Positions 6,845-54,010 of a DNA stretch of 64,000 nt are shown here, in pieces (the first letter of the stretch is position 1; each line of letters begins with the position of its first letter). The stretch is from positions 348,378,001 through 348,442,000 of the forward strand of contig OZ024742.1 in NCBI GenBank assembly GCA_964016885.1, read 5' to 3'. A program made the position numbers and the translations under genes. The notes under the pieces are model-generated. The model was not told the DNA's origin, ran no database searches, and saw only the letters and a list, made by a program, of their open reading frames with translations. Source of the stretch: Eledone cirrhosa (taxonomy: Eukaryota).

Positions 6845-7166
6845 ATATTAAATAAATGGAAACTATATTTATAAAACTATATTTATTCTATTATATATAT
6901 TTCAAGGGTACCAGAACTTTGGTACGCTTTCATCAGATAAAATACAAAGTTTGTTTTATACATTTTGACATAACCAAGAAAAATACCTTAACGGTTCAAG
7001 TTTTCCTTGGATATATATAATAGAATAAATATGGTTTTATAAATATAGTTTCCATTTATTTAATATCATTGAATATTATACTCCAGAAAATCTGTCGAGT
7101 GCTCTGACTCAGTTATAAACATTTATATTTGTTGAATTACCAACAAATTGAATATCCCTTTTGCTT
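6840..7166. mobile_element. Inverted-repeat element (Penelope-like pLTR remnant) in (AT)n
   Basis: About 60-bp arms at 6840-6900 and 7011-7071; CTGATGA on the minus strand inside; tail ttatactccag...gagtgct resembles 61825-61860. Confidence 0.55.
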
Positions 7167-19397: not shown

Positions 19398-21233
19398 CAT
19401 CATCATCGTTTAACGTCCATCTTCCACGCTTGCATGGGTTTGGATGGGAGTTTTCCCACTTAAGGCAAGATTGGTTGTTCTGCTCGTATAGGACTGTCTG
19501 GCGGGTTTTCTATGGCTGGATGCCCTTCCTAACACCAACCACATTTACAGTGTGGACTGGAAGGTTTTTACCATGTTATCTACATGGCCACATTACAGCG
19601 TGGACTGTGTTTTTTTGTCGTGACACCTACACGACCTCATTTGTTTCGGACTGGATGTTGTGGTACCAACATAACTTCACATTGAAGGGGGTGCTGTGGA
19701 TGGGGTAGTGGGACGGGGGTGTATTTTTGTTAGAGGTGCCTACTGACTGTAGGTTTCGCTTTGTACTTAGGTAAGGTGGGTCTTCTGTATTACTGTGTAG
19801 CACCAAAGATCTCGGTCCAGTAACATTGTCTTGGAGAAGTGTAAGTGTGTGAGGTCGGAATTTATCAAGTCGTCCCAGGTTTTTCTGGGTCTGTCTACTC
19901 CGTATCTACCGTCTATTTTTATTGCCCTGCACTTTTTTATACAGCTGTCGTCTTTCATGCGCATCACATGACCGTACCAACGTAGTCTTCTCTCGAGTAA
20001 ACAACATCTGATCCCTCTTATTCCTAATTTCTCCCTTAGTTCGTTTATGCTTTGCCGTTCACGTATATTACTATTACACATCCAGCGGAGCATGCAAGCT
20101 TCGTTCCTCTCCAGTCTGCGTATATCCTCTGCACACAATGCCCAGGTCTCACTGCCATGTAACATTGCTGTTCGTATGCAGGCATCATACAGCCTGCCTT
20201 TCATTTTTAGAGAGAACCCTTTAGCGGCCAATAGTGGTATAACCTCTCTGAACTTTTTCCATCCCGTTCTGACTCTAGCTACTGTACTTTCAGAGCACCC
20301 TCCCCCACTGCTGATTTTGTCACCCAGGTAACGGAAGGTGTCCACTATTTCTATAGAACCATCTGTGCAATGGAATGAGCTAGAATTCTGTGGGCACTTG
20401 CTGCTACTTATTACACCAGAGCACCGGCCACATATAAAATCTATATTCTTAGTTAGCTTACCTGTGATCCCACTACATCTTTTATGCACCCATACTTTGC
20501 ATTTGGGACATAAAATGGAGTTTCTGCCTACTCCTTTCCTACACACTGAGAATGGCCATTTCCCAGATGGGACCGGTGCCCTATTTTCCTTCCTACAAAC
20601 TAGAAATTTAGTCTTCGACAGGTTAATTTTAAGGCCTTTTGAGGCTAGGCCATGCTTCCATGTTTGGAATTTCTTCTCTTGTTCAGCCATTGATTCAGCT
20701 ATGAGCGTTAGATCATCTGCGTATAGGAGCTCCCATGGGCAGCCGGTCTTGAAGTCCTCTGTTATAGCCTGAAGGGCAATAATAAATAGTAGGGGGCTAA
20801 GAACGGAGCCCTGATGAACACCAACTTTTACGCTAAACTCTTCACTATATTTGTTGTTAATTCTAACCTTGTTGACTGTTTCTTTATACATGGCTTGTAT
20901 AGCTCTCACAAGCCATTCATCAACACCTAGTTTTCTAAGAGCCCACCAGATAATGGAACGGGGGACTCTGTCAAAGGCTTTCTCCAAGTCGATTAAAGCT
21001 AAGTATAGGGGTTTACTTTTAGCTAGGTACTTCTCCTGTAGTTGTCGTACAATGAAAAGAGCGTCTGTGGTACTTTTACCTGACACAAACCCGAACTGCA
21101 TTTCATCTAGATCAATTCGTTCTCTGATTAGTTGCGCTATTACTTTTTCTGTGACCTTCATGACCTGGTCGATTAATTTAATGCCTCGAAAGTTACCCCT
21201 ATCTAGGGCATCTCCTTTACCCTTGTAGCAGTT
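19398..21233 (-). mobile_element. Young 5'-truncated RTE LINE with an open RT frame of about 490 codons
   Basis: ORF 19767-21329 contains RT motifs NFRGIKL, QFGF, DLEKAFD, QGSVLSP, YADD and FRYLG; (GAT)n tail; 5' end lies in (AT)n. Confidence 0.95.
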
Positions 21234-21275
21234 AATATATATATATATATTATAATAATTATTATTATTTATTGT

Positions 21276-21440
21276 TAGGGCGGTGGATTGGCAGTATTGG
21301 TAGAGAGTCAGCACCATGCTTTCCAGCATAGAGTTACGTCCCTTTACGGTCTGAGTTCAAATCCTTACGGGGTCAATAAAATAAAATACCAGTAATGTAC
21401 TGGTTAATTGCTGGCCTTGTGTCAAAAGTAGAAACAATTA
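21276..21440 (+). mobile_element. SINE family B (internally deleted)
   Basis: Matches 22516-22705. Confidence 0.75.
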
Positions 21441-33900: not shown

Positions 33901-34600
33901 CTGATTCTGGCTTGATTTCTACAGCTGGATGCCCTTCCTAACACCAACCTCATTTACAGTGAGTGCTGGGTGGTCTTTGCCCTTGCACCTACACGACCAC
34001 TTTGCAGTGGAATGATAGGGACACCAGTCCCTATCATCTCATTTCTACAGCTGAGTAAACTGGAGCCATGAGAAATAAAGTGTCTTGCTCAAGGAAACAA
34101 CACACCACCCGGTCTGAGAATTGAACTCACAACCTTTCGATTGCAAGACCAATGCTCTAACCACTAAGCCATGTGCCTCCATTACCATATTAACAACAAA
34201 TATGACTTTCACTTCAATCAAAAATGACAAGCTTTGTGAATGGTATTTCCACCCACTTTCCGCCCTCTTTTTTTCTACAAAGCTAGTCATTTTCAATAGG
34301 TTTCAAAGTCTTCATTGATAATATGTGCAAAAAATAGTTAATTGTGAACACTTTTAATGTCAGATTGGGTGGTAAGCACACACACAAAAAAAGTAGGAAG
34401 AAAATTTTTCACACCGAGTTCAATAGCATGGTGTGATGTAGTATGGTGTAGTTTGTTATGGTGAGGTTTGGTTTGGTGTAGTTTGGTATGGTTTAGTTTG
34501 GTGTAGTTATAACATGGACACCTATCATAAATTTACCAAGGTATGGTATAATCTGGTTTGGTGTAGTGTAGGTTAGTGTGGTGTGGAGTGTTATTGTGTT
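30951..34600. repeat. Complex tandem array of about 880-bp units built from shorter sub-repeats
   Basis: gacaggtttccatgtc at 30951, 31840 and 32715; recurrent gcacctttaatgtcagattgggtggtaagcac. Confidence 0.9.
33848..34180 (-). mobile_element. Full-length CORE-type SINE
   Basis: Matches the family; taccat-like flanks suggest a short TSD. Confidence 0.88.
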
Positions 34601-41855: not shown

Positions 41856-42961
41856 TTCTTCATATTTCTCTTTCTCTTCTTCATCTTTGTATTCATCTTC
41901 TTTGTTTTGTCTTCCATCTAAACAAAAAAAATATATATATAAAACATATATGTAGCCAATCTCTCAGATTTTTACAAAGCTCCAAGGAGATACATTTAAT
42001 ATAAGTGGTGTGTTCCTGAACAGAGATACTACAAAATAGCTTAAAAGCTATATATATATATATAAATAAATATACACGGGTGTGTATGATTGTGTATAGA
42101 AGATTATATTAATAAAAGGAATTCCAACTTTGTCTGATTTACTCGTTTTATTTACAATCCTTTAAAATTTATAATGGTATTAGAATGAAATAGTATGGTA
42201 GAGTGTTAAGTGTTAATTGAACAAGTACTTTCATGCTTTCGCAATCTTCAGGTTCATATTCTGTGGTGACAGTCAATTTGCAATTTTCAACTGTAATGAG
42301 ATGGGTAAATTTTGTGCCTCATATATAGTGAAAAGCGGCTACAGAATGCTACATTTTGCAAACTGTATTTCGACCAATCGGTGTGTAGTTTCACTGGATT
42401 ACTGAAGCTGATTGGTTTAGGCATCACGATTGGTTGAGCATGTCTAACGACTTCTATTTGGCCCTATTCAAAGCATCAATTGTTTTGCTATTTTTAGAAA
42501 TGATGTAAATAGCATTTTCTAGGATTTTTATACCCCTAAGAATTATTATTGTTCATCTATCCAGTCGTGAACCAACAAACCTAAATGAAACGTTCTGTTA
42601 AATGTTTTTCCATTCTTGAAAAAATTCTTTATAACTATTCGCTGGACATTCAATATCTACTTTGATTGTCGCATATAATACAGTTGCAGGTGTGTACGTG
42701 ATTGCTGTGGGTGTATTGTGCCCGTATGTATCACGCCTGCGCGAAACATGAGTGAGGGCAGCGAATACAGGTTGAGAGGGTGGCGACAGGGCGCGAATGG
42801 TTCAGTCATACAACCGCTTACCTCCTACAGTAGTAATTCTGATTTAAGAAACAACTTTGATTGGCAGGTAGCAAATGAAGGGAACCAAATATAGGACGGC
42901 CATGAGTGGCCAAAAATACCGATGACGTGTACAATTCTTGACCACTCATAGAATGACAACA

Positions 42962-43044
42962 ACAGGATCTAAGCTGTTTCATTCGTGAGAAATCATCAGG
43001 GGCTTCCTGATGATTTCTCACGAATGAAACAGTTCTAGTCCTGT
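42962..43044. ncRNA. Palindrome with hammerhead core motifs on both strands
   Basis: cCTGATGAtttctcacgaatGAAAc on + and on -; related minus-strand copy at 53670-53720; stems I and III unclear. Confidence 0.45.
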
Positions 43045-43067
43045 AGAAGTTTTATCATATTAAATAT

Positions 43068-44073: not shown

Positions 44074-44690
44074 AATTCCTGAAAGTTAACTTGTTGAAGG
44101 CTGCTGATGAAATTTGTGGCTGGAGCAGACAGTTAGGTAGGAGGAGAGTGACATGGTGGTGGAACAGTAAGGTGGAGGGGTCCACCAAGGAAAAAAGGAG
44201 ACTTGGAAAGAATGGCAGGATGGAGGTAGTAGAGAACTCCCAGATAGTAAACCAAGTAATACGGAATGGGGTTATACCAAATGACTAGTGTAGCATTATC
44301 ATCGTCAAATGTTACAAGGGCAAAGGAAACGCCCTGGATAGAGGAAACTATAGGGGCATTAAGTTAGTTGACCAGGTCATGAAAGTCACAGAAAGAGTTC
44401 TTACTCAACTGATTAGAGACTGAATTGATCTAGATGAAATGCAGTTTGGGTTTGTGCAGGTAAAAGCACTATGGATGTTCTTTTCTTTTCTTTGTACGGC
44501 TACTACAGAAGAAGAACCTTGCTGAAAGTAAACCCCTTTTGTTGACTTGGACAGAGTCTCACGCACCTTAATCTGGTAGGCTCTTAGAAAACTAGGAGTA
44601 GATGAATAGCTTGTGAGAGTTATACAAGCCACGTATAGAGGAACAGTCAGCAAGGTTAGAATTAACAATGAATATAGTGAAGAATTTAGC
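44070..44690 (+). mobile_element. RTE LINE internal fragment (opposite orientation to 43068-43812)
   Basis: LLKAADEICGWS..WWWNS, CYKGKGNALDRGNYRGIKL and INNEYSEEFS. Confidence 0.85.
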
Positions 44691-44961
44691 TACATCAATC
44701 ATGTTCGGTGAATCCATACGTACATATATATGTGTGTGCATATATGTATATATACATACTACTGTACGTCTGTATACATATATGTATGTACGTGTACATA
44801 CTTATATTTAAGTAACAGCCGTACTAAGAGTGGGAAATGAAATTTCGTTTCATTTTTTCCGTTTATCGTTTTCGGTGCACCCGGCCGATTAACCCACTCG
44901 ATATGCAGATTGGGCTACTCAGCCGTTAATATGCATAAGGTAAGTATATACATTCAACAAT

Positions 44962-45030
44962 CTGGCAGGAAGGTATACGTTGCTGATGATAGCTAATAAG
45001 CTTGAAACTAGTACAGCGTTCCTTTGTCAG
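44962..45030 (+). ncRNA. Type I hammerhead ribozyme, copy 1
   Basis: acgttg-CTGATGA-t-agct-aata-agct-t-GAAA-ctag-TA|cagcgt. Helix III is the palindrome ACTAGT with a GUA cleavage triplet; stem I extends (ctggc/agga with tcct/gtcag) around an aggtat bulge. Confidence 0.85.
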
Positions 45031-45381
45031 TGTTGATCAAACGAGCAACGATGGTTGCTGGATACTACGGCTTAATACGGGATGTTTGTTTACAAACACA
45101 CCGAACATTATAATAAATGTTCGGTGAATCCATGCGTACATATATATATGTGTGCATGTATGTATATATATATACATACTACTGTACGTCTATATACATA
45201 TATGTATGTACGTGTACATACTTATATTTAAGTAACAGCCGTACTAAGAGTGGGAAATGAAATTTCGTTTCATTTTTTCCGTTTATCGTTTTCGTTGCAC
45301 CCGGCCGATTAACCCACTCGATATGCAAATTGGGCTACTCAGCCGTTAATATGCATAAGGTAAGTATATACGTTCAACAAT

Positions 45382-45450
45382 CTGGCAGGAAGGTATACGT
45401 TGCTGATGATAGCTAATAAGCTTGAAACTAGTACAGCGTTCCTTTGTCAG
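45382..45450 (+). ncRNA. Type I hammerhead ribozyme, copy 2
   Basis: Identical to copy 1. Confidence 0.85.
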
Positions 45451-45627
45451 TGTTGATCAAACGAGCAATGATGGTTGCTGGACACTACGGCTTAATACGG
45501 GATGTTTGTTTACTAACACACCGAGCATTATAATAAATGTTCGGTGAATCCATACGTACATATATATATATGTGTGCATGTATGTATATATATATACATA
45601 CTACTGTACGTCTGTATACATATATGT

Positions 45628-46721
45628 ACCAGTAAGAAAAATGCGTACAGCAAAAATAAGTAATATTGTTGGAATATAAACCTTTAAAAATACAGGACAA
45701 GAAACTAAAATAAAACTTTAAAAGAATAGGACAAGAAACTAAAATAAAACTTTAAAAGAATAGGAAAGAAACTAAGATAAAACTTTAAAGAATTGGACAA
45801 GAAATAAAAAATTTTACAATAATATTAGTGGCAAAATTTTTATTGGTAAAAAATCGAGTTCCACATTCATAGGCTCTGGGTTCCCCATTCAGAAGTCGTC
45901 GTCAGACTGGGGGGATCATTTGATCCTGGTTTGAACACCAATTGGGCCATAACCATACCCCTATTTCATCATTCGGCGACACGCCTCATGTGTCATGCAT
46001 AATGTGAATGGACCCATGGGCCCATGAGCACAGATCTTGAGCAGCAGCGGACGGTCTTGTCGTCCCGCTCATCCTTGATCTTGACCAACCCGTCCATCTT
46101 CTCCTTGCATCTTGTCCTTGAGTTCAAGTCCGGCAGTCCAGATGAATGCGTGCCACAGCTTTCTGGTACAGGAAGGGGGAGCAGGAGGACTGGAGGGATG
46201 ACGGGACAGAGGGAGGGAGGACCGGTGGTTGAGGGATGTGCCGTAGTCGGTGGTCAGAGTCGACATCTTGTCCCGGTCGTCTTCTCCATCTTCGTCTGGT
46301 GTTGCGGGACCAGAAGTGCATTCTTGGAGGAGACCTGCAGCTGCATCGGCCAATTCTTCTTGCAATGGTCATTCTGACGGAGCAGAACTGCTCAGCCAAC
46401 CAACCCCAACCAGAACCAACCGCCCAGGGGCAACGCACAATGAGAGCATGACAATTATTATGCACTAATCAAGAAGATACTGGGGCATAGCACAGGAAAC
46501 GAATAAAAAAAATTTGCCACTAATATTATTGTAAAACTTTTTATTTCTTGTCCAATTCTGTAAAGTTTTATCTTAGTTTCTTGTCCTATTCTTTTAAAGT
46601 TTTATCTTAGTTTCTTGTCCTATTCTTTTAAAGTTTTATTTTAGTTTCTTGTCCTGTATTTTTAAAGGTTTATATTCCAACAATATTACTTATTTTTGCT
46701 GTACGCATTTTTCTATCTGGT
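45628..46721. mobile_element. Foldback/TIR element: ~217-bp inverted arms with 34-bp internal tandem repeats around a GC-rich core
   Basis: accagtaagaaaaatgcgtacagc... and ...gctgtacgcatttttctatctggt; no clear TSD. Confidence 0.8.
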
Positions 46722-48690: not shown

Positions 48691-49227
48691 AATTTAACTC
48701 ACATGTTTACCTATATTTTCGCAAACTATTGATAGATTGGTACAAAAAATAGCTTTGATAATAAACATAAATTTAAGTATTTAAATTAAAGTATTTATAA
48801 AGCATTTTAGCAGTGAAAAGAGAAGTAATGTTTCACACTGACGCAAGTAGGGCCGTTCAGAAATGATGTAGTCAATTAGGAGGAGGGGATTCGGCGATTT
48901 GACTACATTTGACTAACGTAATCACAATCACAAGAGTTCCGCCGAAAAAAATTCGTCATTTCTGGATTACCTCCCCTAGCGTCACGCTTACTACTCACTC
49001 ACTTGAACACAAGATTTATCAGCAAACTTTGATTATAAACTTTTTCCCGCTGGACCAAATTTCTAGATTTTTAAGCCAAAAGATGTGTAATGATCTACTG
49101 TTCATGCTCATATAAGTTTTATCTCAGTTAAATAAAGTAGAGCCGCGCTGTACTGTCGTAAACAGACGATTGCCAACGAAAACACGACCACAACAATATT
49201 ACTAAACGGACTACCGTCCGTTTAGGA

Positions 49228-49293
49228 TGTACGTATGGATTCACCGAACATTTATCATAATGCTCGGTGTGTTTGTAAACAAACATCCCGTAT
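49228..49293 (-). repeat. Inverted partial copy of the hammerhead-bearing 420-bp unit
   Basis: Reverse complement of aatacgggatgtttgtttacaaacacaccgagcatt...gttcggtgaatccatacgtac. Confidence 0.9.
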
Positions 49294-49532
49294 TTCACAT
49301 TGCTCAAGTTTACTCAGCTGTAGAAATGAGATGATAGAGACTAGGGTCCATATCATTCCACTGCAAAGTGTTCGTGGAGGTGCCACGGCAAAAAATCCCC
49401 CAGCACTCACTGTAAATGAGGTTGGTGTTAGGAAGGACATCCAGCTGTAGAAATCAAGCCAGAATCAGTTCCCGTCCCACCCTTGCTAGCACGGAAAAGC
49501 GGACGTAAAATGAAATGAAATGAATGAAATGA
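49294..49532 (+). mobile_element. 5'-truncated CORE-type SINE
   Basis: Matches the family. Confidence 0.85.
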
Positions 49533-49547
49533 TATATATATATATAT

Positions 49548-52500
49548 GATGGCTGCCCCCTCGTTATCAAGTATGGCCATTGTGCAATAAAAAAAAAGAA
49601 AGAATACACATATATATATTAATAATTAACGGTTAACGGTGCTGCCATCGAATGTGGTTTTTTAGTCCAGCCACTAAGCTAAAATGTCTTGCACAGAGTT
49701 GGCAACCAAAACATTCACTGGCAATAGCCGGTAGTGGTTGGATTTCATATACTTTTGCATGTCATTTGAGCCCTCCTGCTGATCCTGTTATTTTCCACAT
49801 TCTTGACAGGTATGATGAGTAGCATCTCTGACAGCAGCCTGGTAGTCAACAACTGGTCTCACTTTATGACTGCGAAGATGACTTTTGAGTCCAGCTTTGC
49901 TGAGGCAAAGTCTTGCACAGATGCTGCATGTACAGTCTTTCCCCATTTATTACGATCAGCAGCTACGCTTTCCCATGTATCAGCAGAGATGTTAAGCATC
50001 TTTTAAGGAGGCTTTCAACGAATCCTTATACCTCTTTTTTGGTTTATGTGGAGGCAATTTTCCTTTAACTAACTCTCCATAAAAGAGTTGTTTTGGTATC
50101 CTAGAATCCTTAATCCTGGCAAGGTGACCACTCGATCAGAGTCTTTGCTTAAGCACAAGAGTTTCTATGCTTTCACACAGAGAGCTTTCCAAAATCTCGG
50201 ACATCACTGATGTGGTCCCTCCAGTGAATGTCATGAATACGTCTGAGACACATCTGATGGAAACGTTCCAACTGTTTAAAGTGGTATCGATATGCGACCC
50301 AGGTCTCACAGGCATAAAGAAGAGAAGCGAGCATACATACCCTGTACACCTTTGTCTTCTTGCATATGTCTCACCAACCCCAGAGGTGCCTTTTTAGCTT
50401 TCTGAAAGCATCACTTGCTTTCCTAATCCTGTGTGGAATTTCATTATCAAGATTGCTGTATTGATTGACAGTGCTTCCCAGGTAGACAAACTGATCAACC
50501 ACTCCAAGTGGTTTACCATACACATAGATATTTGGTTCATTGTACTGCTTACGGATTTCTTGAGACTGACAGTCAATCCTAGGGCAGTGTAAGCATCAGA
50601 AAATGCATTCAATATGTGCTGCATATCAATCTCTGTGTGCGCTACAAGATCGCAATCATCTGCATACAAGAGGTCTCTTATGATAGAGCTAAATACTTTT
50701 GTTTTTGCAGCAAAGTGCCTGATGTTAAATATGCTACCAGAAGTTCGACCGTAGATGTAAACACCATGCTTGCAATTCCTGAATGCAATATAGAAAATCA
50801 TTGCAAAGTATATGTCAAATAGGGTCGGTGCTGGAATTACCCCCCTGTTTCACTCCATTTTTCACTGAGATAGGCTCCGGCATGTTACCTCTCACATTAA
50901 CCCAAGCCTTCATGTCATCACGGAAAGACCTAACCAAAGCAAGGAACTTATTAGGGCAACCAAGTTTCTGGAGAACCTTCCACAATGAATTTCTGTTAAC
51001 AGTATTGAAAGCTTTTGTCAGATCAACAAAAACCTGATACAGATCCAAACCCTGTTCCACACACTTCTCCTGAAGCTGACTAGCTGAGAAGATCATATCA
51101 GTAGTGCCGTGTTCTGCACGAAAACCAGATTAACTTTCAGGAAGAACACAATCTGGAATGTATGTCAGCAGACGGTCCAGAATCACCCTACATAACATTT
51201 TTCCTACGACAGAAAGCAATGATATACCCCTATAGTTTCCACAATCGCCTTGCCTAAGTACAAAGCGAAACCTACAGTCAACACGCCCATCCCACTACCC
51301 CTACACCACCCCTTTCTCTGTAAAGTTATGTTGGTGCCACAACATCCAGTCCTAAATAAATGAGGGCGTGTAGGTGTCACGACAAAAAAACACACAGTCC
51401 ACGCTGTAATGTGGCCGTGTGTAGGTAACACAGTAAAAACCTCCCAGTCCACACTGTAAACGTGGTTGGTGTTAGGACAAACAAAGAGTGAATATGTCGC
51501 AGAAGTCTCTCACCACCATATTTTAAGAGCTCTGCATGTATGCCATCCATACCTGGAAACCTTCCACTGTTCAGCTACAAGACAGCTACTGCAACTTCCT
51601 CTAACGTCGGTGGTTCTGCGAGAGCTACTTTCACAGGTTTTTCAGGGATTAGATTGAGGAAATCTTCATTGACGACAGATGGCTGATTCAAAAGTTCATC
51701 AAAGTGCTCTTGTCACCTTCACACGAAGAAGTTCCCTGCCATCCCTGCTGCAAAGCGGTGTCCCCAGAGAACAAGATGGTCCATAAACTTCATGCAAGAA
51801 ATTGTACAACATTTTTGTGCTATTGGAATCTGATGCAGCTTGTATCTCACCAGCCTTCTCACTCCACTGCTTATCCTTCATCTAAGAGAGCCTCCGCTAC
51901 ACATGTGATTTCACATCCTTGTGTTCCTTATGCAACATATTCTTCTCCTTTGGCTTTGCTGCCAAATAGTGTGACAGAGCATGCCTCTTATCAGCCAACA
52001 AGTCTTCTATATGTTCATCATTTTCTTTAACCAAGTCTTGATGCTTTCTTTGTACCAGTCCCAGAACACGCCACCCAACATCATAAACGGACTTTTTAGG
52101 GGGTGGCCAATCCTCACCAATATCTGCAACATTTATTTCTTCACACTATTACCTCTAAGACAAGCAGCATTCAGTCTTTTAGGCAGGGTAACACCAGCAG
52201 CCTGGTTTTTACATTTTGTAGTTAATTTCACATTTACACGTATCAGGCAGTGGTCCATCCAACACTCAGCCCCACGAAGGACATGAACACACTGCACATC
52301 CCGTCTGTCACACACTCTGACAAGGATGTGGCCCAGATGCCATTCTTTAGATGCAGGATGCATCCATGTGGTCTTAAACTTATTCTTTTGCTGAAACATG
52401 GTATTGGTAACACATAGATCCAGCTCCTCACAAATCTGCAGCAGGAGCATACCATTGCTGTTACACTTTCCCACCCATGCCTTCTGATTACAGTCCATAT

Positions 52501-53000
52501 GTTAAAATCCCTACCCACTCTAGCATTAAAATCACCCAGCACGATAACCTTGTCTGCCTGAGAGATATTTCTTATAACACCTTTCAATGCATGGTGGAAA
52601 GATACTTTTTCTTCATCAACAGAATTCATAGTTGGAGCATACACATTCACCAGGGTCACATACCTTCCTTTGTCCAACAAAATTCTCATGAACATAAGAT
52701 GCTCACTAATCCCCACTGGGAATTCTTCCAACTTATCCACAAGAGCAGTCCTAACAGCAAATGCTATTCCAGCCTCTCTTCTAATCCCTTCATCTCTCCA
52801 TTTCCAAAAGAATGTATATTTTCCACAATATTTCATAAGACGACCATCTCCGGCTAACCCCGTCTTAAATAAAGCAACAATGTCAAGATCATAATGATGA
52901 AGCTCCTTCGCAACAAGAGCGGTCCTTTGTTCAGGACGTTCTCAGGAATCACTTTCAAGCTGTGTCCATAAATTCCAACAGCCAATATTCAATGTTTTGT
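49548..53000 (-). mobile_element. Near full-length degraded RTE (BovB-like) LINE: APE endonuclease plus RT
   Basis: NIGCWN, YAPT, LGDFNARVG, TWMHP, VDLTKAFNTV, GVKQG and LLYADD; many frameshifts. An RTE 3'UTR piece is inserted on + at about 51215-51477. Confidence 0.9.
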
Positions 53001-53393: not shown

Positions 53394-53643
53394 TCCTTGA
53401 GCAAGACACTTTATTTCACATTGCTCCAGTTTACTCAGCTGTAGAAATGAGATGATAGGGACCCCAGTCCCTATCATTCCACTGCAAAGTGGTCGTGGAG
53501 GTGCCACAGCAAAAAAGCACCCAGCACTCACTGTAAATGAGGTTGGTGTTAGGAAGGGCATCCAGCTGTAGAAATCAAGCCAGAATCAGTTCCCGTCCCA
53601 CCCTTGCAAGCAGGGAAAAGTGGATGTAAAATGAAATGATGAT
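53391..53643 (+). mobile_element. 5'-truncated CORE-type SINE
   Basis: Matches the family. Confidence 0.85.
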
Positions 53644-54010
53644 ATATATATATATATTTAATATACAAAATGGCTTCTACAGGACTAGAATTGTTTCATT
53701 CGAAGGAAATCATCAGAGACGAGCTTGAATATTGAAGCATATCTGAGGATTTTTTTTATTCCAGAGTCAGGTTCGATCACTAATAGATTGTTACTTGAGC
53801 TGATCAACAGTGAAACATGTGTAATGTTATTAAATATGTTATGATGCAACACTGATTCTTTGTTCCTTTATTCTTATACTATATATACATACATATATGT
53901 GTGTTTGTAAGTACAGATTAAAGTTTAAGCAAAGAATCGTTGCGTTCAGCCTTTTACGGGATCTTCTGAAACTTTTTGCTGTACGGGTTTATATATATAT
54001 ATTTTATATA

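What the first reader, a model, noticed from the sequence alone, without database searches (positions are those of the whole stretch)
44962..45450. Tandem type I hammerhead ribozymes 420 nt apart: retrozyme-like circular RNA generator
Both copies have an intact CUGAUGA/GAAA core, a GUA cleavage triplet, palindromic helix III (ACUAGU, suited to dimeric cleavage) and an extended stem I with a bulge. Read-through transcription would release a 420-nt monomer, the layout known for metazoan non-LTR retrozymes that yield circRNAs. Activity is inferred, not shown.
Basis: partly seen in the sequence, partly recalled or inferred. Interest (0 to 1): 0.75.

Follow-up and report, generated by a model that had tools for sequence, protein, structure and literature searches.

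The report
Hammerhead-ribozyme retrozyme repeat, high-copy family
Two intact type I hammerhead ribozyme motifs sit exactly 420 bases apart in a short tandem repeat that belongs to a family with more than 25,000 copies in this 3-Gb animal genome; it is a new member of the known "non-LTR retrozyme" class, which would likely release a 420-nt RNA that is predicted to be circularised and copied back into (TA)n microsatellites.

Summary
Window 44701-45628 is a 2.2-unit tandem repeat with a 420-nt period. Each junction carries a type I hammerhead (44962-45030 and 45382-45450), with predicted cleavage after 45013 and 45433. Rfam gives only a sub-threshold Hammerhead_HH9 hit (22.5 bits against a cut-off of 52). 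A structural descriptor finds the motif about 1000 times more often than in shuffles, and stem I covaries between subfamilies.

The duplication is not local. The cleavage-site 24-mer occurs 8,772 times in the genome, and a sister subfamily's 24-mer 16,809 times (reversed controls 0), on many chromosomes.

Arrays are 5'-truncated. They end at two fixed internal positions (217 and 273) that abut (TA)n, and in 13 of 24 sampled places they form head-to-head pairs. This is the insertion architecture described for Penelope-like elements, which are very abundant here and carry their own hammerheads.

Self-cleavage, circular RNA, expression and the autonomous partner remain inferred: no RNA run was on record, and no sequence similarity to 42 sampled loci around GIY-YIG hits or Rfam HH9 hits was found. 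Verdict: a new member of a known kind, of moderate interest. The insertion footprint is the most useful new piece.

The parts
44701..45628 (+). Retrozyme array: 2.2 tandem units of a 420-nt repeat (monomer positions 104-420, 1-420, 1-193)
   Evidence: TRF period 420, 96% matches; blastn of the monomer against the window; own-genome search
45014..45433 (+). Complete monomer between the two predicted cleavage sites. This is the 420-nt RNA that double cleavage would release.
   Evidence: Sequence. Linear MFE -136.4 kcal/mol against -98.6 +/- 5.6 for 100 shuffles, z -6.7. Circular MFE -132 kcal/mol and GC 36.9%.
44962..45030 (+). Hammerhead copy 1 (type I): stem I 44962-44982 with 45014-45030, core CUGAUGA 44983-44989, helix II 44991-45002, GAAA 45004-45007, predicted cleavage after 45013
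   Evidence: pair counts
45382..45450 (+). Hammerhead copy 2, identical to copy 1 over the motif; predicted cleavage after 45433
45007..45012 (+). Palindromic helix III segment ACUAGU of copy 1 (copy 2: 45427-45432). Too short to fold in cis; it would pair in trans in a double hammerhead.
   Evidence: Forming the 1-bp helix III in cis costs +5.4 kcal/mol (-11.6 vs -17.0), while the ACUAGU/ACUAGU duplex gives -4.8 kcal/mol
44701..44701 (+). 5' end of the insertion (monomer position 104). The upstream flank 44380-44700 reads like LINE reverse-transcriptase coding sequence (by eye, not tested).
45628..45628 (+). 3' end of the array at monomer position 193, atypical for the family. It abuts a MITE-like element (45629-46721), not (TA)n.
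49227..49294 (-). Isolated 68-nt fragment of the same repeat (monomer positions 61-128, 95.6% identity)

Best explanation
This is a 5'-truncated 2.2-unit insertion of a high-copy non-LTR retrozyme family; if transcribed, its two type I hammerheads would likely cleave, probably as a dimer, to release a 420-nt RNA.

Shown by the sequence and the calls:
- two intact hammerhead motifs lie 420 nt apart;
- the family has at least 25,000 dispersed units in two subfamilies, with units of 420 nt and about 466-538 nt;
- the ribozyme core is invariant between subfamilies while stem I changes in a compensated way;
- the monomer is predicted to be strongly self-paired, with its ends held together by stem I.

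Inferred life cycle. Arrays are transcribed as oligomers. The hammerheads cleave after GUA, probably as double hammerheads formed through the ACUAGU palindrome, because helix III is too weak in cis. A host RNA ligase circularises the monomer. A reverse transcriptase then copies the circular (or uncleaved multimeric) RNA by target-primed reverse transcription. This enzyme is most likely that of a Penelope-like element (RT plus GIY-YIG). Priming comes from nicked (TA)n DNA annealed to internal UAUA-type sites at monomer positions 217 or 273. The copying runs round the template one to many times and stops at random, which gives the variable 5' ends. Because (TA)n is its own complement, both target strands could prime. 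That would give the frequent head-to-head array pairs whose two outer ends both sit at 217 or 273.
For: Motif: see the observation check.

Family size:
- The 420-nt monomer gives 176 matches from only 40 of 2,646 candidates scored. They are mostly 95-98% identical and lie on 14 contigs, with arrays of at least 13 units.
- The exact 24-mer across the cleavage site occurs 8,772 times; the sister variant (CATCG) occurs 16,809 times; reversed controls give 0.
- 13,095 contigs of one run lie on the stretch.

Ribozyme conservation:
- 70 of 84 independently sampled copies keep the full core. 77 of 84 keep ACTAGT, 80 of 84 keep helix II and 81 of 84 keep the U-U.
- Subfamily B differs from the window monomer by about 20% overall, and by about 40% at positions 31-120. 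It is 97% identical over positions 391-420, which hold the core (9 B units).

Structure, from 53 distinct sequences (distinct among 171 motif matches in 60 loci; aligned and counted):
- 95.4% of cells are paired, against 32-48% when partners are slid.
- Covariation score is 0.097 against 0.063 +/- 0.004 (0 of 500 shuffles reach it).
- Two stem I pairs change on both sides: U-G 34, G-U 11, A-U 3, C-G 1, U-A 1; and A-U 39, U-G 4.

RNA fold: z -6.7. The hammerhead stem I and helix II are part of the global MFE.

Insertion footprint, from 30 loci representing 24 independent places:
- Of 43 independent array 3' ends, 18 lie at position 272/273 and 16 at 214-217.
- 29 of 43 are followed directly by a TA repeat.
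- 5' ends are scattered (positions 1-395).
- 13 of 24 places are head-to-head pairs with both outer ends at these sites.
- Loose ends 'ATATAT...' at the same two positions appear in run contigs.
- Arrays read through the 420/1 junction. Among the 43 ends, one lies at 416, and the two at 420 are internal breakpoints of a rearranged copy (L007). The template was therefore not a linear cleaved monomer primed at its 3' end.

Penelope-like element context:
- GIY-YIG gives 10,596 candidates, and 150 of 150 scored pass the cut-off.
- Single ORFs carry RT plus a C-terminal GIY-YIG.
- These copies carry their own hammerheads about 390 nt 3' of the ORF and end in (TA)n.
- Published PLE features are 5' truncation, partial tandems, an adjacent inverted 5'-truncated copy and (TA)n targets (PMC8557442, passages read).
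- PLEs have been proposed as retrozyme partners (PMC7229834 section 17; preprint 10.64898/2026.07.22.740005, Results read).
Against: - No experiment or RNA data: no listed run is on record as RNA, so transcription, cleavage and circles are all inferred.
- The Rfam score is far below the family cut-off (22.5 vs 52 bits).
- The U-U at the base of helix II and the 1-bp helix III both lowered monomer activity in the axolotl motifs (6% and 22% cleavage in 1 h; PMC7229834 section 15). Activity here could therefore be poor.
- The covariation rests on two pairs and on related sequences. The tested structure was also derived from these same sequences (caveat stated).
- No PLE with the same hammerhead or 3' end was found. 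blastn of both subfamilies against 42 loci around GIY-YIG hits or Rfam HH9 hits gave only three adjacent retrozyme insertions, about the number expected by chance; in the one read through, L093, the retrozyme lies in the (TA)n beyond the PLE's 3' end. Comparison of 3' ends gave a best score of 24 against a null 99th percentile of 22 over 38 tests.
- (TA)n could be a tail made by the enzyme and not the target. About half of the simple insertions have (TA)n on the 5' side as well, which favours a target but does not prove it.
- The window copy itself ends at position 193 without (TA)n, so it does not show the family footprint.
Confidence: 0.8

Rival explanations
1. A local tandem duplication of a dead Penelope pLTR, unique to this locus.
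For: The array has only 2.2 units. A 5'-truncated Penelope-like fragment with its own hammerhead lies 2.2 kb upstream at 42049-42521.
Against: There are 8,772 exact copies of the window-type cleavage-site 24-mer and 16,809 of the sister type genome-wide. Near-identical arrays lie on 14 contigs. The upstream Penelope fragment has a different hammerhead and no similarity to the repeat. No RT or GIY-YIG ORF flanks the array.
Confidence: 0.01
2. Ordinary satellite or minisatellite DNA that happens to carry a hammerhead-like relic. It would be amplified by unequal crossing-over or by segmental DNA events, with no RNA intermediate and no ribozyme function.
For: The arrangement is tandem and arrays reach at least 13 units. 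The Rfam score is below the cut-off. There is no RNA evidence.
Against: The genome holds thousands of short dispersed arrays with fixed 3' ends, random 5' truncation and microsatellite flanks. This is the signature of reverse transcription, not of unequal exchange. The core is invariant and stem I changes are compensated across subfamilies about 20% apart. 70 of 84 copies keep the core.
Confidence: 0.06
3. The same retrozyme, but mobilised by a LINE (non-LTR retrotransposon) and not by a Penelope-like element. The (TA)n would be a 3' tail added during reverse transcription, as with the simple-repeat tails of some LINEs.
For: LINE fragments are present in the window: an RT+PHD ORF at 19770-21356 and an APE domain at 52246-52941. 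The array sits in LINE-like sequence (by eye). No Penelope element sharing sequence with the repeat was found. PMC7229834 section 17 leaves 'LINEs or PLEs' open.
Against: Head-to-head pairs with two canonical outer ends occur in 13 of 24 places. Partial tandems and (TA)n flanks on both sides match the published Penelope architecture, not the usual LINE pattern. Penelope copies in this genome also abut (TA)n and carry hammerheads with the same unusual U-U at the base of helix II. There is no poly(A).
Confidence: 0.13

Closest known systems
Metazoan non-LTR retrozymes (Cervera & de la Pena 2020, PMC7229834), e.g. the mussel Mytilus galloprovincialis 350-390-bp repeats with about 5000 hammerheads
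   Same: Short tandem repeats, each unit with a type I hammerhead. No LTR, PBS or PPT. GC below 50% (here 36.9%). Predicted highly self-paired monomer. Thousands of copies. Co-existence with Penelope-like elements that carry minimal hammerheads.
   Different: The unit is 420 nt and the sister subfamily about 466-538 nt. This is at or above the 170-400 nt quoted for the RNAs, though within the 150-450 bp and 51-972 bp ranges quoted elsewhere (PMC7229834 section 13; preprint Results). Sequences are species-specific. Expression and circles were shown there and are not shown here.
Axolotl/newt hammerheads HHR_Amex1 and HHR_Amex2 (satellite 2-type repeats of 330-350 bp; PMC7229834 section 15)
   Same: The motif here combines both published weaknesses: a 1-bp helix III capped by a palindromic tetraloop (as in Amex1) and a U-U mismatch at the base of helix II (as in Amex2). 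Both axolotl motifs cleave poorly as monomers and well as dimers.
   Different: The host differs: relatives of the flanking LINE are commonest in Mollusca, which is a weak lead. The sequence is unrelated. Stem I is long, with a UAU/U internal loop. Dimer dependence here is only predicted from energies.
Penelope-like elements and their pLTR hammerheads (Craig et al. 2021, PMC8557442)
   Same: Insertion architecture: strong 5' truncation, head-to-tail partial tandems, an adjacent inverted 5'-truncated copy, and (TA)n microsatellite targets. Type I hammerheads with weak helix III.
   Different: There is no ORF. No detectable sequence similarity to 42 sampled loci around GIY-YIG hits or Rfam HH9 hits in the same genome. 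The (TA)n preference was published for Naiads, which lack canonical hammerheads. The copies seen here have a C-terminal GIY-YIG.
Plant LTR retrozymes (PMC4918200; search listing and abstract only)
   Same: Non-autonomous retroelements whose RNA is excised by flanking hammerheads and circularised.
   Different: The plant elements use type III hammerheads inside LTRs, have PBS, PPT and 4-bp TSDs, produce 600-1000-nt circles, and are thought to be mobilised by Gypsy elements.

Membership tests
Hammerhead ribozyme, type I (Rfam clan CL00010) | Conserved catalytic core: C3 U4 G5 A6 N7 G8 A9, G12 A13 A14, A15.1-U16.1, H17 | tested here: met
   CUGAUGA ... GAAA ... U-A|C in both copies. N7 is U in 43 and C in 39 of 82 family copies, and 70 of 84 copies keep the whole core.
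Hammerhead ribozyme, type I (Rfam clan CL00010) | Three helices around the core, with helix I open and helices II and III capped | tested here: met
   Stem I has 16 bp with two compensated pairs. Helix II has 4 bp (AGCU/AGCU) and never varies. Helix III is only 1 bp in cis, or 6 bp in trans. 95.4% of cells are paired, against 32-48% for slid controls.
Hammerhead ribozyme, type I (Rfam clan CL00010) | Score at or above the Rfam gathering threshold | tested here: not met
   Hammerhead_HH9 gives 22.5 bits against 52, and nothing at gathering. The alignment loses score in the deleted helix III and at the U-U mismatch.
Hammerhead ribozyme, type I (Rfam clan CL00010) | Self-cleavage at the predicted site | not testable with these tools
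   Needs in vitro transcription of monomer and dimer constructs.
Metazoan non-LTR retrozyme | [quoted passage not shown] | tested here: met
Metazoan non-LTR retrozyme | No LTR, PBS, PPT or coding capacity; GC below 50% | tested here: met
   The unit is a plain 420-nt repeat with GC 36.9%. No ORF of 120 aa or more overlaps 44701-45628. PBS and PPT were not searched for formally.
Metazoan non-LTR retrozyme | Stable, highly self-paired predicted circular RNA | tested here: met
   z -6.7 with 0 of 100 shuffles as stable; circular MFE -132 kcal/mol.
Metazoan non-LTR retrozyme | Expressed as linear and circular monomer RNA | not testable with these tools
   No RNA holder is listed, and contigs cannot show ends or circles.
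Metazoan non-LTR retrozyme | Co-existence with autonomous Penelope-like elements | tested here: met
   10,596 GIY-YIG candidates; RT plus GIY-YIG ORFs with hammerheads.
Penelope-like element pLTR | Terminal repeat of an element encoding RT plus GIY-YIG, or sequence similarity to such an element | tested here: not met
   No such ORF lies beside the array. There is no similarity to 42 sampled loci around GIY-YIG hits or Rfam HH9 hits beyond three adjacent retrozyme insertions, one of them read through.

The most novel reading that the evidence does not exclude
The family preserves a clean genomic footprint of how animal retrozymes integrate. Copying starts at two fixed internal UA-rich sites of a circular or multimeric RNA, primed by (TA)n target DNA. 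It runs through the ribozyme junction one to many times. It is often primed from both strands of the self-complementary microsatellite, which gives head-to-head arrays. This would be the first direct sequence evidence for Penelope-type target-primed, rolling-circle reverse transcription of ribozyme-made circular RNA. I found no such description in the papers searched: (6 papers hold both 'retrozyme' and 'microsatellite'); passages of two of those six (the Penelope paper PMC8557442 and the 2026 preprint) read, plus the Discussion of PMC7229834 (not among the six).
Probability: 0.45. Interest if true: 0.6.

Novelty: new member of a known kind. Interest (0 to 1): 0.4.

Why it matters
Retrozymes are the ribozyme-based route to circular RNA in animals, but how they get back into DNA is still a hypothesis. 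This genome offers tens of thousands of young copies (95-98% identical) with sharply defined 3' junctions. It also has two subfamilies for comparison and a very large resident population of Penelope-like elements.

That makes the proposed steps directly testable here: circular RNA as template, (TA)n target priming, and a Penelope enzyme as partner. The hammerhead combines two known weakening features, so it is also a natural test case for dimer-dependent cleavage. For annotation, about 0.4% of this genome (roughly 25,000 units of 420-500 nt) should be labelled as retrozyme, not as unclassified satellite.

Tried and rejected
- **Rfam at gathering score**: no hammerhead reached the cut-off. Searching the whole genome with RF02275 scored only 58 of about 177,000 candidates. 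It returned a different repeat (GGCCTTGATAAGCTT...GCGAAAC, 31-36 bits) whose core reads CUUGAUAA, so it is not a canonical hammerhead. The search did not help with this family.
- **RNA evidence:** no RNA holder is listed. The four runs laid are contigs of unknown kind and cannot show starts, ends, strand or circles.
- **Earlier notes of this scan:** none for this genome.
- **Looking for the autonomous partner:** Pfam on window ORFs found only LINE domains. ORFs next to the HH9-like repeat in L033 had no Pfam hit, and the Atlas lead was weak. blastn of both subfamilies against 42 loci around GIY-YIG hits or Rfam HH9 hits found only three adjacent retrozyme insertions, about the number expected from copy density. 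In the one read through, L093, the retrozyme lies in the (TA)n beyond the PLE's 3' end. Local alignment of PLE 3' ends with the two retrozyme 3' ends was not significant: best score 24 (L086, shared TTTTCCGTTTA) against a null 99th percentile of 22 over 38 tests.
- **A shared 5' 'tail' (GAGCTCTG):** this turned out to be a fragment of another repeat fused to one insertion, not a family feature.
- **Continuation of the array beyond the MITE-like element** at 45629-46721: not found, so the atypical 3' end of the window copy stays unexplained.
- **Taxon:** only a weak lead, since relatives of the LINE RT are commonest in Mollusca or Nematomorpha. I did not pursue the identity of the record.
- **Timed-out script:** the first fold script timed out and was re-run in smaller parts.

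Full report
**1. What is in the window**

Reading 44700-45800 shows a repeat of period 420. TRF places it at 44701-45628 with 2.2 copies and 96% matches.

Two identical 69-nt segments, 44962-45030 and 45382-45450, have the full anatomy of a type I hammerhead:
- a long open stem I (6 bp next to the core, a UAU/U internal loop, 4 bp, a GG bulge, then 6 bp);
- the core CUGAUGA;
- helix II, AGCU/AGCU, closed by AAUA and sitting on a U-U mismatch;
- GAAA, followed by ACUAGU;
- the cleavage triplet GUA, followed by C.

In cis, helix III can only be one A-U pair closing a CUAG tetraloop. The six-base palindrome can form a 6-bp helix only between two motifs.

**2. Is it more than chance?**

- Rfam at gathering score reports no hammerhead in the window.
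- At an E-value threshold, both copies align end to end to Hammerhead_HH9 at 22.5 bits. The cut-off is 52. The E-value is 0.016 in 2.2 kb and 7.3e-4 in 101 nt. The alignment loses score where helix III is deleted and at the U-U mismatch.
- A structural descriptor of my own finds 5 hits in the window, against a mean of 0.005 in 200 dinucleotide shuffles. It requires the core, helix II of at least 3 bp, the 15.1-16.1 pair and stem I with at least 5 of 6 pairs.
- The other three hits are different hammerhead families tied to Penelope-like elements (see section 6).

**3. It is a large dispersed family, not a local duplication**

- The 420-nt monomer finds 176 matches in the 3.0-Gb assembly, although only 40 of 2,646 candidates were scored. 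Identities are mostly 95-98%. The matches lie on 14 contigs and include arrays of at least 13 units.
- The exact 24-mer spanning the cleavage site occurs 8,772 times. The variant with CATCG in place of CAGCG occurs 16,809 times. Reversed-pattern controls give 0.
- Spacing in the second set is 466-538 nt, which defines a sister subfamily B.
- In one public run, 13,095 contigs lie on the stretch. Two other coded organisms hold parts of it.

**4. Evidence that the ribozyme is the conserved part**

*Within the window-type subfamily.* Among 84 independently located copies, 70 keep the complete core, 77 keep ACTAGT, 80 keep helix II and 81 keep the U-U. Position 7, which is free in hammerheads, is U in 43 and C in 39 of the 82 copies of full length.

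*Between subfamilies.* Nine B units aligned to the window monomer give the following identities:

| Monomer positions | Identity to subfamily B |
|---|---|
| 31-120 | 57-62% |
| most other 30-nt windows | 78-90% |
| 181-210 | 96% |
| 391-420 (holds the core) | 97% |

*Pair counts.* The 53 distinct hammerhead sequences come from 60 loci (distinct among 171 motif matches in 60 loci; aligned). Counting them against the hammerhead structure gives:
- 95.4% of cells paired, against 32-48% when partners are slid;
- covariation score 0.097 against 0.063 +/- 0.004, reached by 0 of 500 shuffles;
- two stem I pairs changed on both sides: pair 2.3-1.3 is U-G 34, G-U 11, A-U 3, C-G 1, U-A 1, and a distal pair is A-U 39, U-G 4.

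The run contigs show the same two columns varying at about 40% each.

*Caveats.* The sequences are related, the structure was read from them, and helices II and III do not vary, so they are uninformative.

**5. RNA properties**

- The monomer folds to -136.4 kcal/mol, against -98.6 +/- 5.6 for shuffles (z -6.7).
- The circular fold is -132 kcal/mol, and GC is 36.9%.
- Stem I and helix II of the hammerhead are part of the global minimum-energy fold. The 5' and 3' ends of a cleaved monomer would therefore be held together.
- Closing helix III in cis costs +5.4 kcal/mol. The trans ACUAGU duplex is worth -4.8 kcal/mol.
- This fits the published behaviour of the two axolotl motifs whose weaknesses this motif combines. 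Those are a 1-bp helix III with a palindromic tetraloop, and a U-U at the base of helix II. They cleave 6% and 22% in 1 h as monomers, and efficiently as dimers (PMC7229834, section 15 read).

**6. How the copies got where they are**

I chained blastn hits of the monomer in 30 loci, which represent 24 independent places.

- Of 43 independent array 3' ends, 18 lie at monomer position 272/273 (...TTTTCCGTTTAT|) and 16 at 214-217 (...ACATACTTATATTTA|).
- 29 of 43 are followed directly by a TA repeat.
- 5' ends are scattered over the unit.
- In 13 of 24 places, two arrays lie head to head. Their truncated 5' ends are joined in the middle, and both outer ends sit at the canonical sites in (TA)n.
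- Several simple insertions also have (TA)n on the 5' side (L008, L020, L024/L029, L027).
- Contig loose ends 'ATATAT...' pile up at the same two positions.
- Arrays read through the ribozyme junction. Among the 43 ends, one lies at position 416, and the two at position 420 are internal breakpoints of a rearranged copy (L007).

From this I infer target-primed reverse transcription that starts at internal UA-rich sites of a circular or uncleaved multimeric RNA. It would be primed by nicked (TA)n and would end at random. Because (TA)n is self-complementary, both strands can prime, which would explain the inverted pairs. This is inference from footprints.

The footprint is the architecture published for Penelope-like elements: 5' truncation, partial tandems, an adjacent inverted 5'-truncated copy and (TA)n targets (PMC8557442, passages read).

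Penelope-like elements are very abundant here:
- There are 10,596 GIY-YIG candidates, and 150 of 150 scored pass the cut-off.
- These elements carry hammerheads about 390 nt downstream of the ORF and abut (TA)n.
- Two of their hammerhead types occur in the window itself. One is at 42223-42251 on the minus strand, inside a 480-nt 3' fragment. The other is at 43001-43051. Both share the U-U at the base of helix II.

I could not find a Penelope copy that shares sequence with the retrozyme. In 42 loci around GIY-YIG hits or Rfam HH9 hits, the only matches are three neighbouring retrozyme insertions, about the number expected from copy density. In the one read through, L093, the retrozyme lies in the (TA)n beyond the PLE's 3' end. 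The comparison of 3' ends is not significant. The partner is therefore inferred from architecture alone.

**7. The window copy itself**

The copy starts at monomer position 104 (44701), inside sequence that by eye reads like LINE reverse-transcriptase coding. It ends at position 193 (45628), directly against a 1.09-kb MITE-like element with ~54-bp terminal inverted repeats (45629-46721). The array does not continue beyond that element, so its 3' end is atypical and unexplained.

It holds two intact ribozymes and one complete unit. Read-through transcription would therefore release a 420-nt RNA. Nothing shows that this copy is transcribed.

**8. Comparison with what is known, and verdict**

The thing works like a metazoan non-LTR retrozyme, and by every sequence criterion I could test it is one (PMC7229834). 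It sits in a genome where the proposed Penelope partners abound (preprint 10.64898/2026.07.22.740005, outline and Results read).

It fails only the Rfam score threshold. Cleavage and circular RNA cannot be tested here, and no RNA holder was listed.

It is a new member of a known kind. What may be new is the clean insertion footprint. In the library searches I made, I found no paper that describes (TA)n-anchored fixed 3' junctions or head-to-head arrays for retrozymes (passages read).

Interest 0.4. Confidence in the main reading 0.8.

Noticed in passing
window 42049-42521 (-), hammerhead at 42223-42251 (-): The 3' terminal ~480 nt of a canonical Penelope-like element family, 85% identical to L048, whose ORF has RT plus a C-terminal GIY-YIG. 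It carries a minimal type I hammerhead: CUGAAGA / UUGC-GAAA-GCAU / GAAA / GUAC / UU. This has a U-U at the base of helix II and a 1-bp helix III with a palindromic tetraloop.
   Followed up: partly
window 42962-43064; full motif 43001-43051 (+); second, 5'-cut copy 53642-53716 (-): A head-to-head inverted pair of another hammerhead-bearing repeat: GGCUUC-CUGAUGA-UUUCUCACGAAU-GAAA-CAG..CUG-UA-GAAGUU, with a 4-bp helix III. The same motif occurs twice, 6.5 kb apart, beside GIY-YIG hits in L090, so it is probably a Penelope pLTR.
   Followed up: partly
window 45629-46721: A MITE-like element of about 1.09 kb with ~54-bp terminal inverted repeats (CCAGTAAGAAAAATGCG...) and 34-bp subterminal tandem repeats in inverted orientation (45676-45809 and 46544-46673). 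It abuts the 3' end of the retrozyme array.
   Followed up: no
window 19770-21356 (-), 52246-52941 (-), 44380-44700 (+): LINE remnants: a 529-aa ORF with RVT_1 plus a PHD finger, an AP-endonuclease fragment, and RT-like coding sequence (by eye, not tested) that the retrozyme array interrupts.
   Followed up: partly
window 6892-6936 (-); L089:6051 (+); L048:893 (-): A further repeated hammerhead-like motif, CUGAUGA plus a long helix II plus GAAAUAUAUAUA. It passes my descriptor, but its helix III/cleavage part lies in TA repeat. Status unclear.
   Followed up: no
own genome, e.g. L031 (C2:207,697,000-207,706,999), L032, L033: An abundant repeat, GGCCTTGATAAGCTTCAACAAAAGCGAAACATGTTATGTCGGC, scores 31-36 bits on Rfam Hammerhead_HH9, higher than the retrozyme. 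Its core reads CUUGAUAA, so it is probably a decayed or non-canonical hammerhead relative.
   Followed up: partly
L024/L029 (C5:63,516,0xx), 5' junction of a 6-unit array: The retrozyme 5' end (position 55) is fused to a ~42-nt fragment of another repeat (...AGCCGTCGAAACAGCTTGAGCTCTGCAGT|CGGCTTAAT...), which follows (TA)n. This looks like a template switch during reverse transcription.
   Followed up: no
L007:463-1130: A complex palindromic copy of a diverged subfamily, centred on the GUUUGUUU-ACAAAC hairpin of the unit. This suggests strand switching at a hairpin.
   Followed up: no
window 34114-34171 (-): A tRNA-like match just above the Rfam cut-off (30.5 vs 29 bits) that covers only model positions 8-63. 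It may be a tRNA-derived repeat.
   Followed up: no
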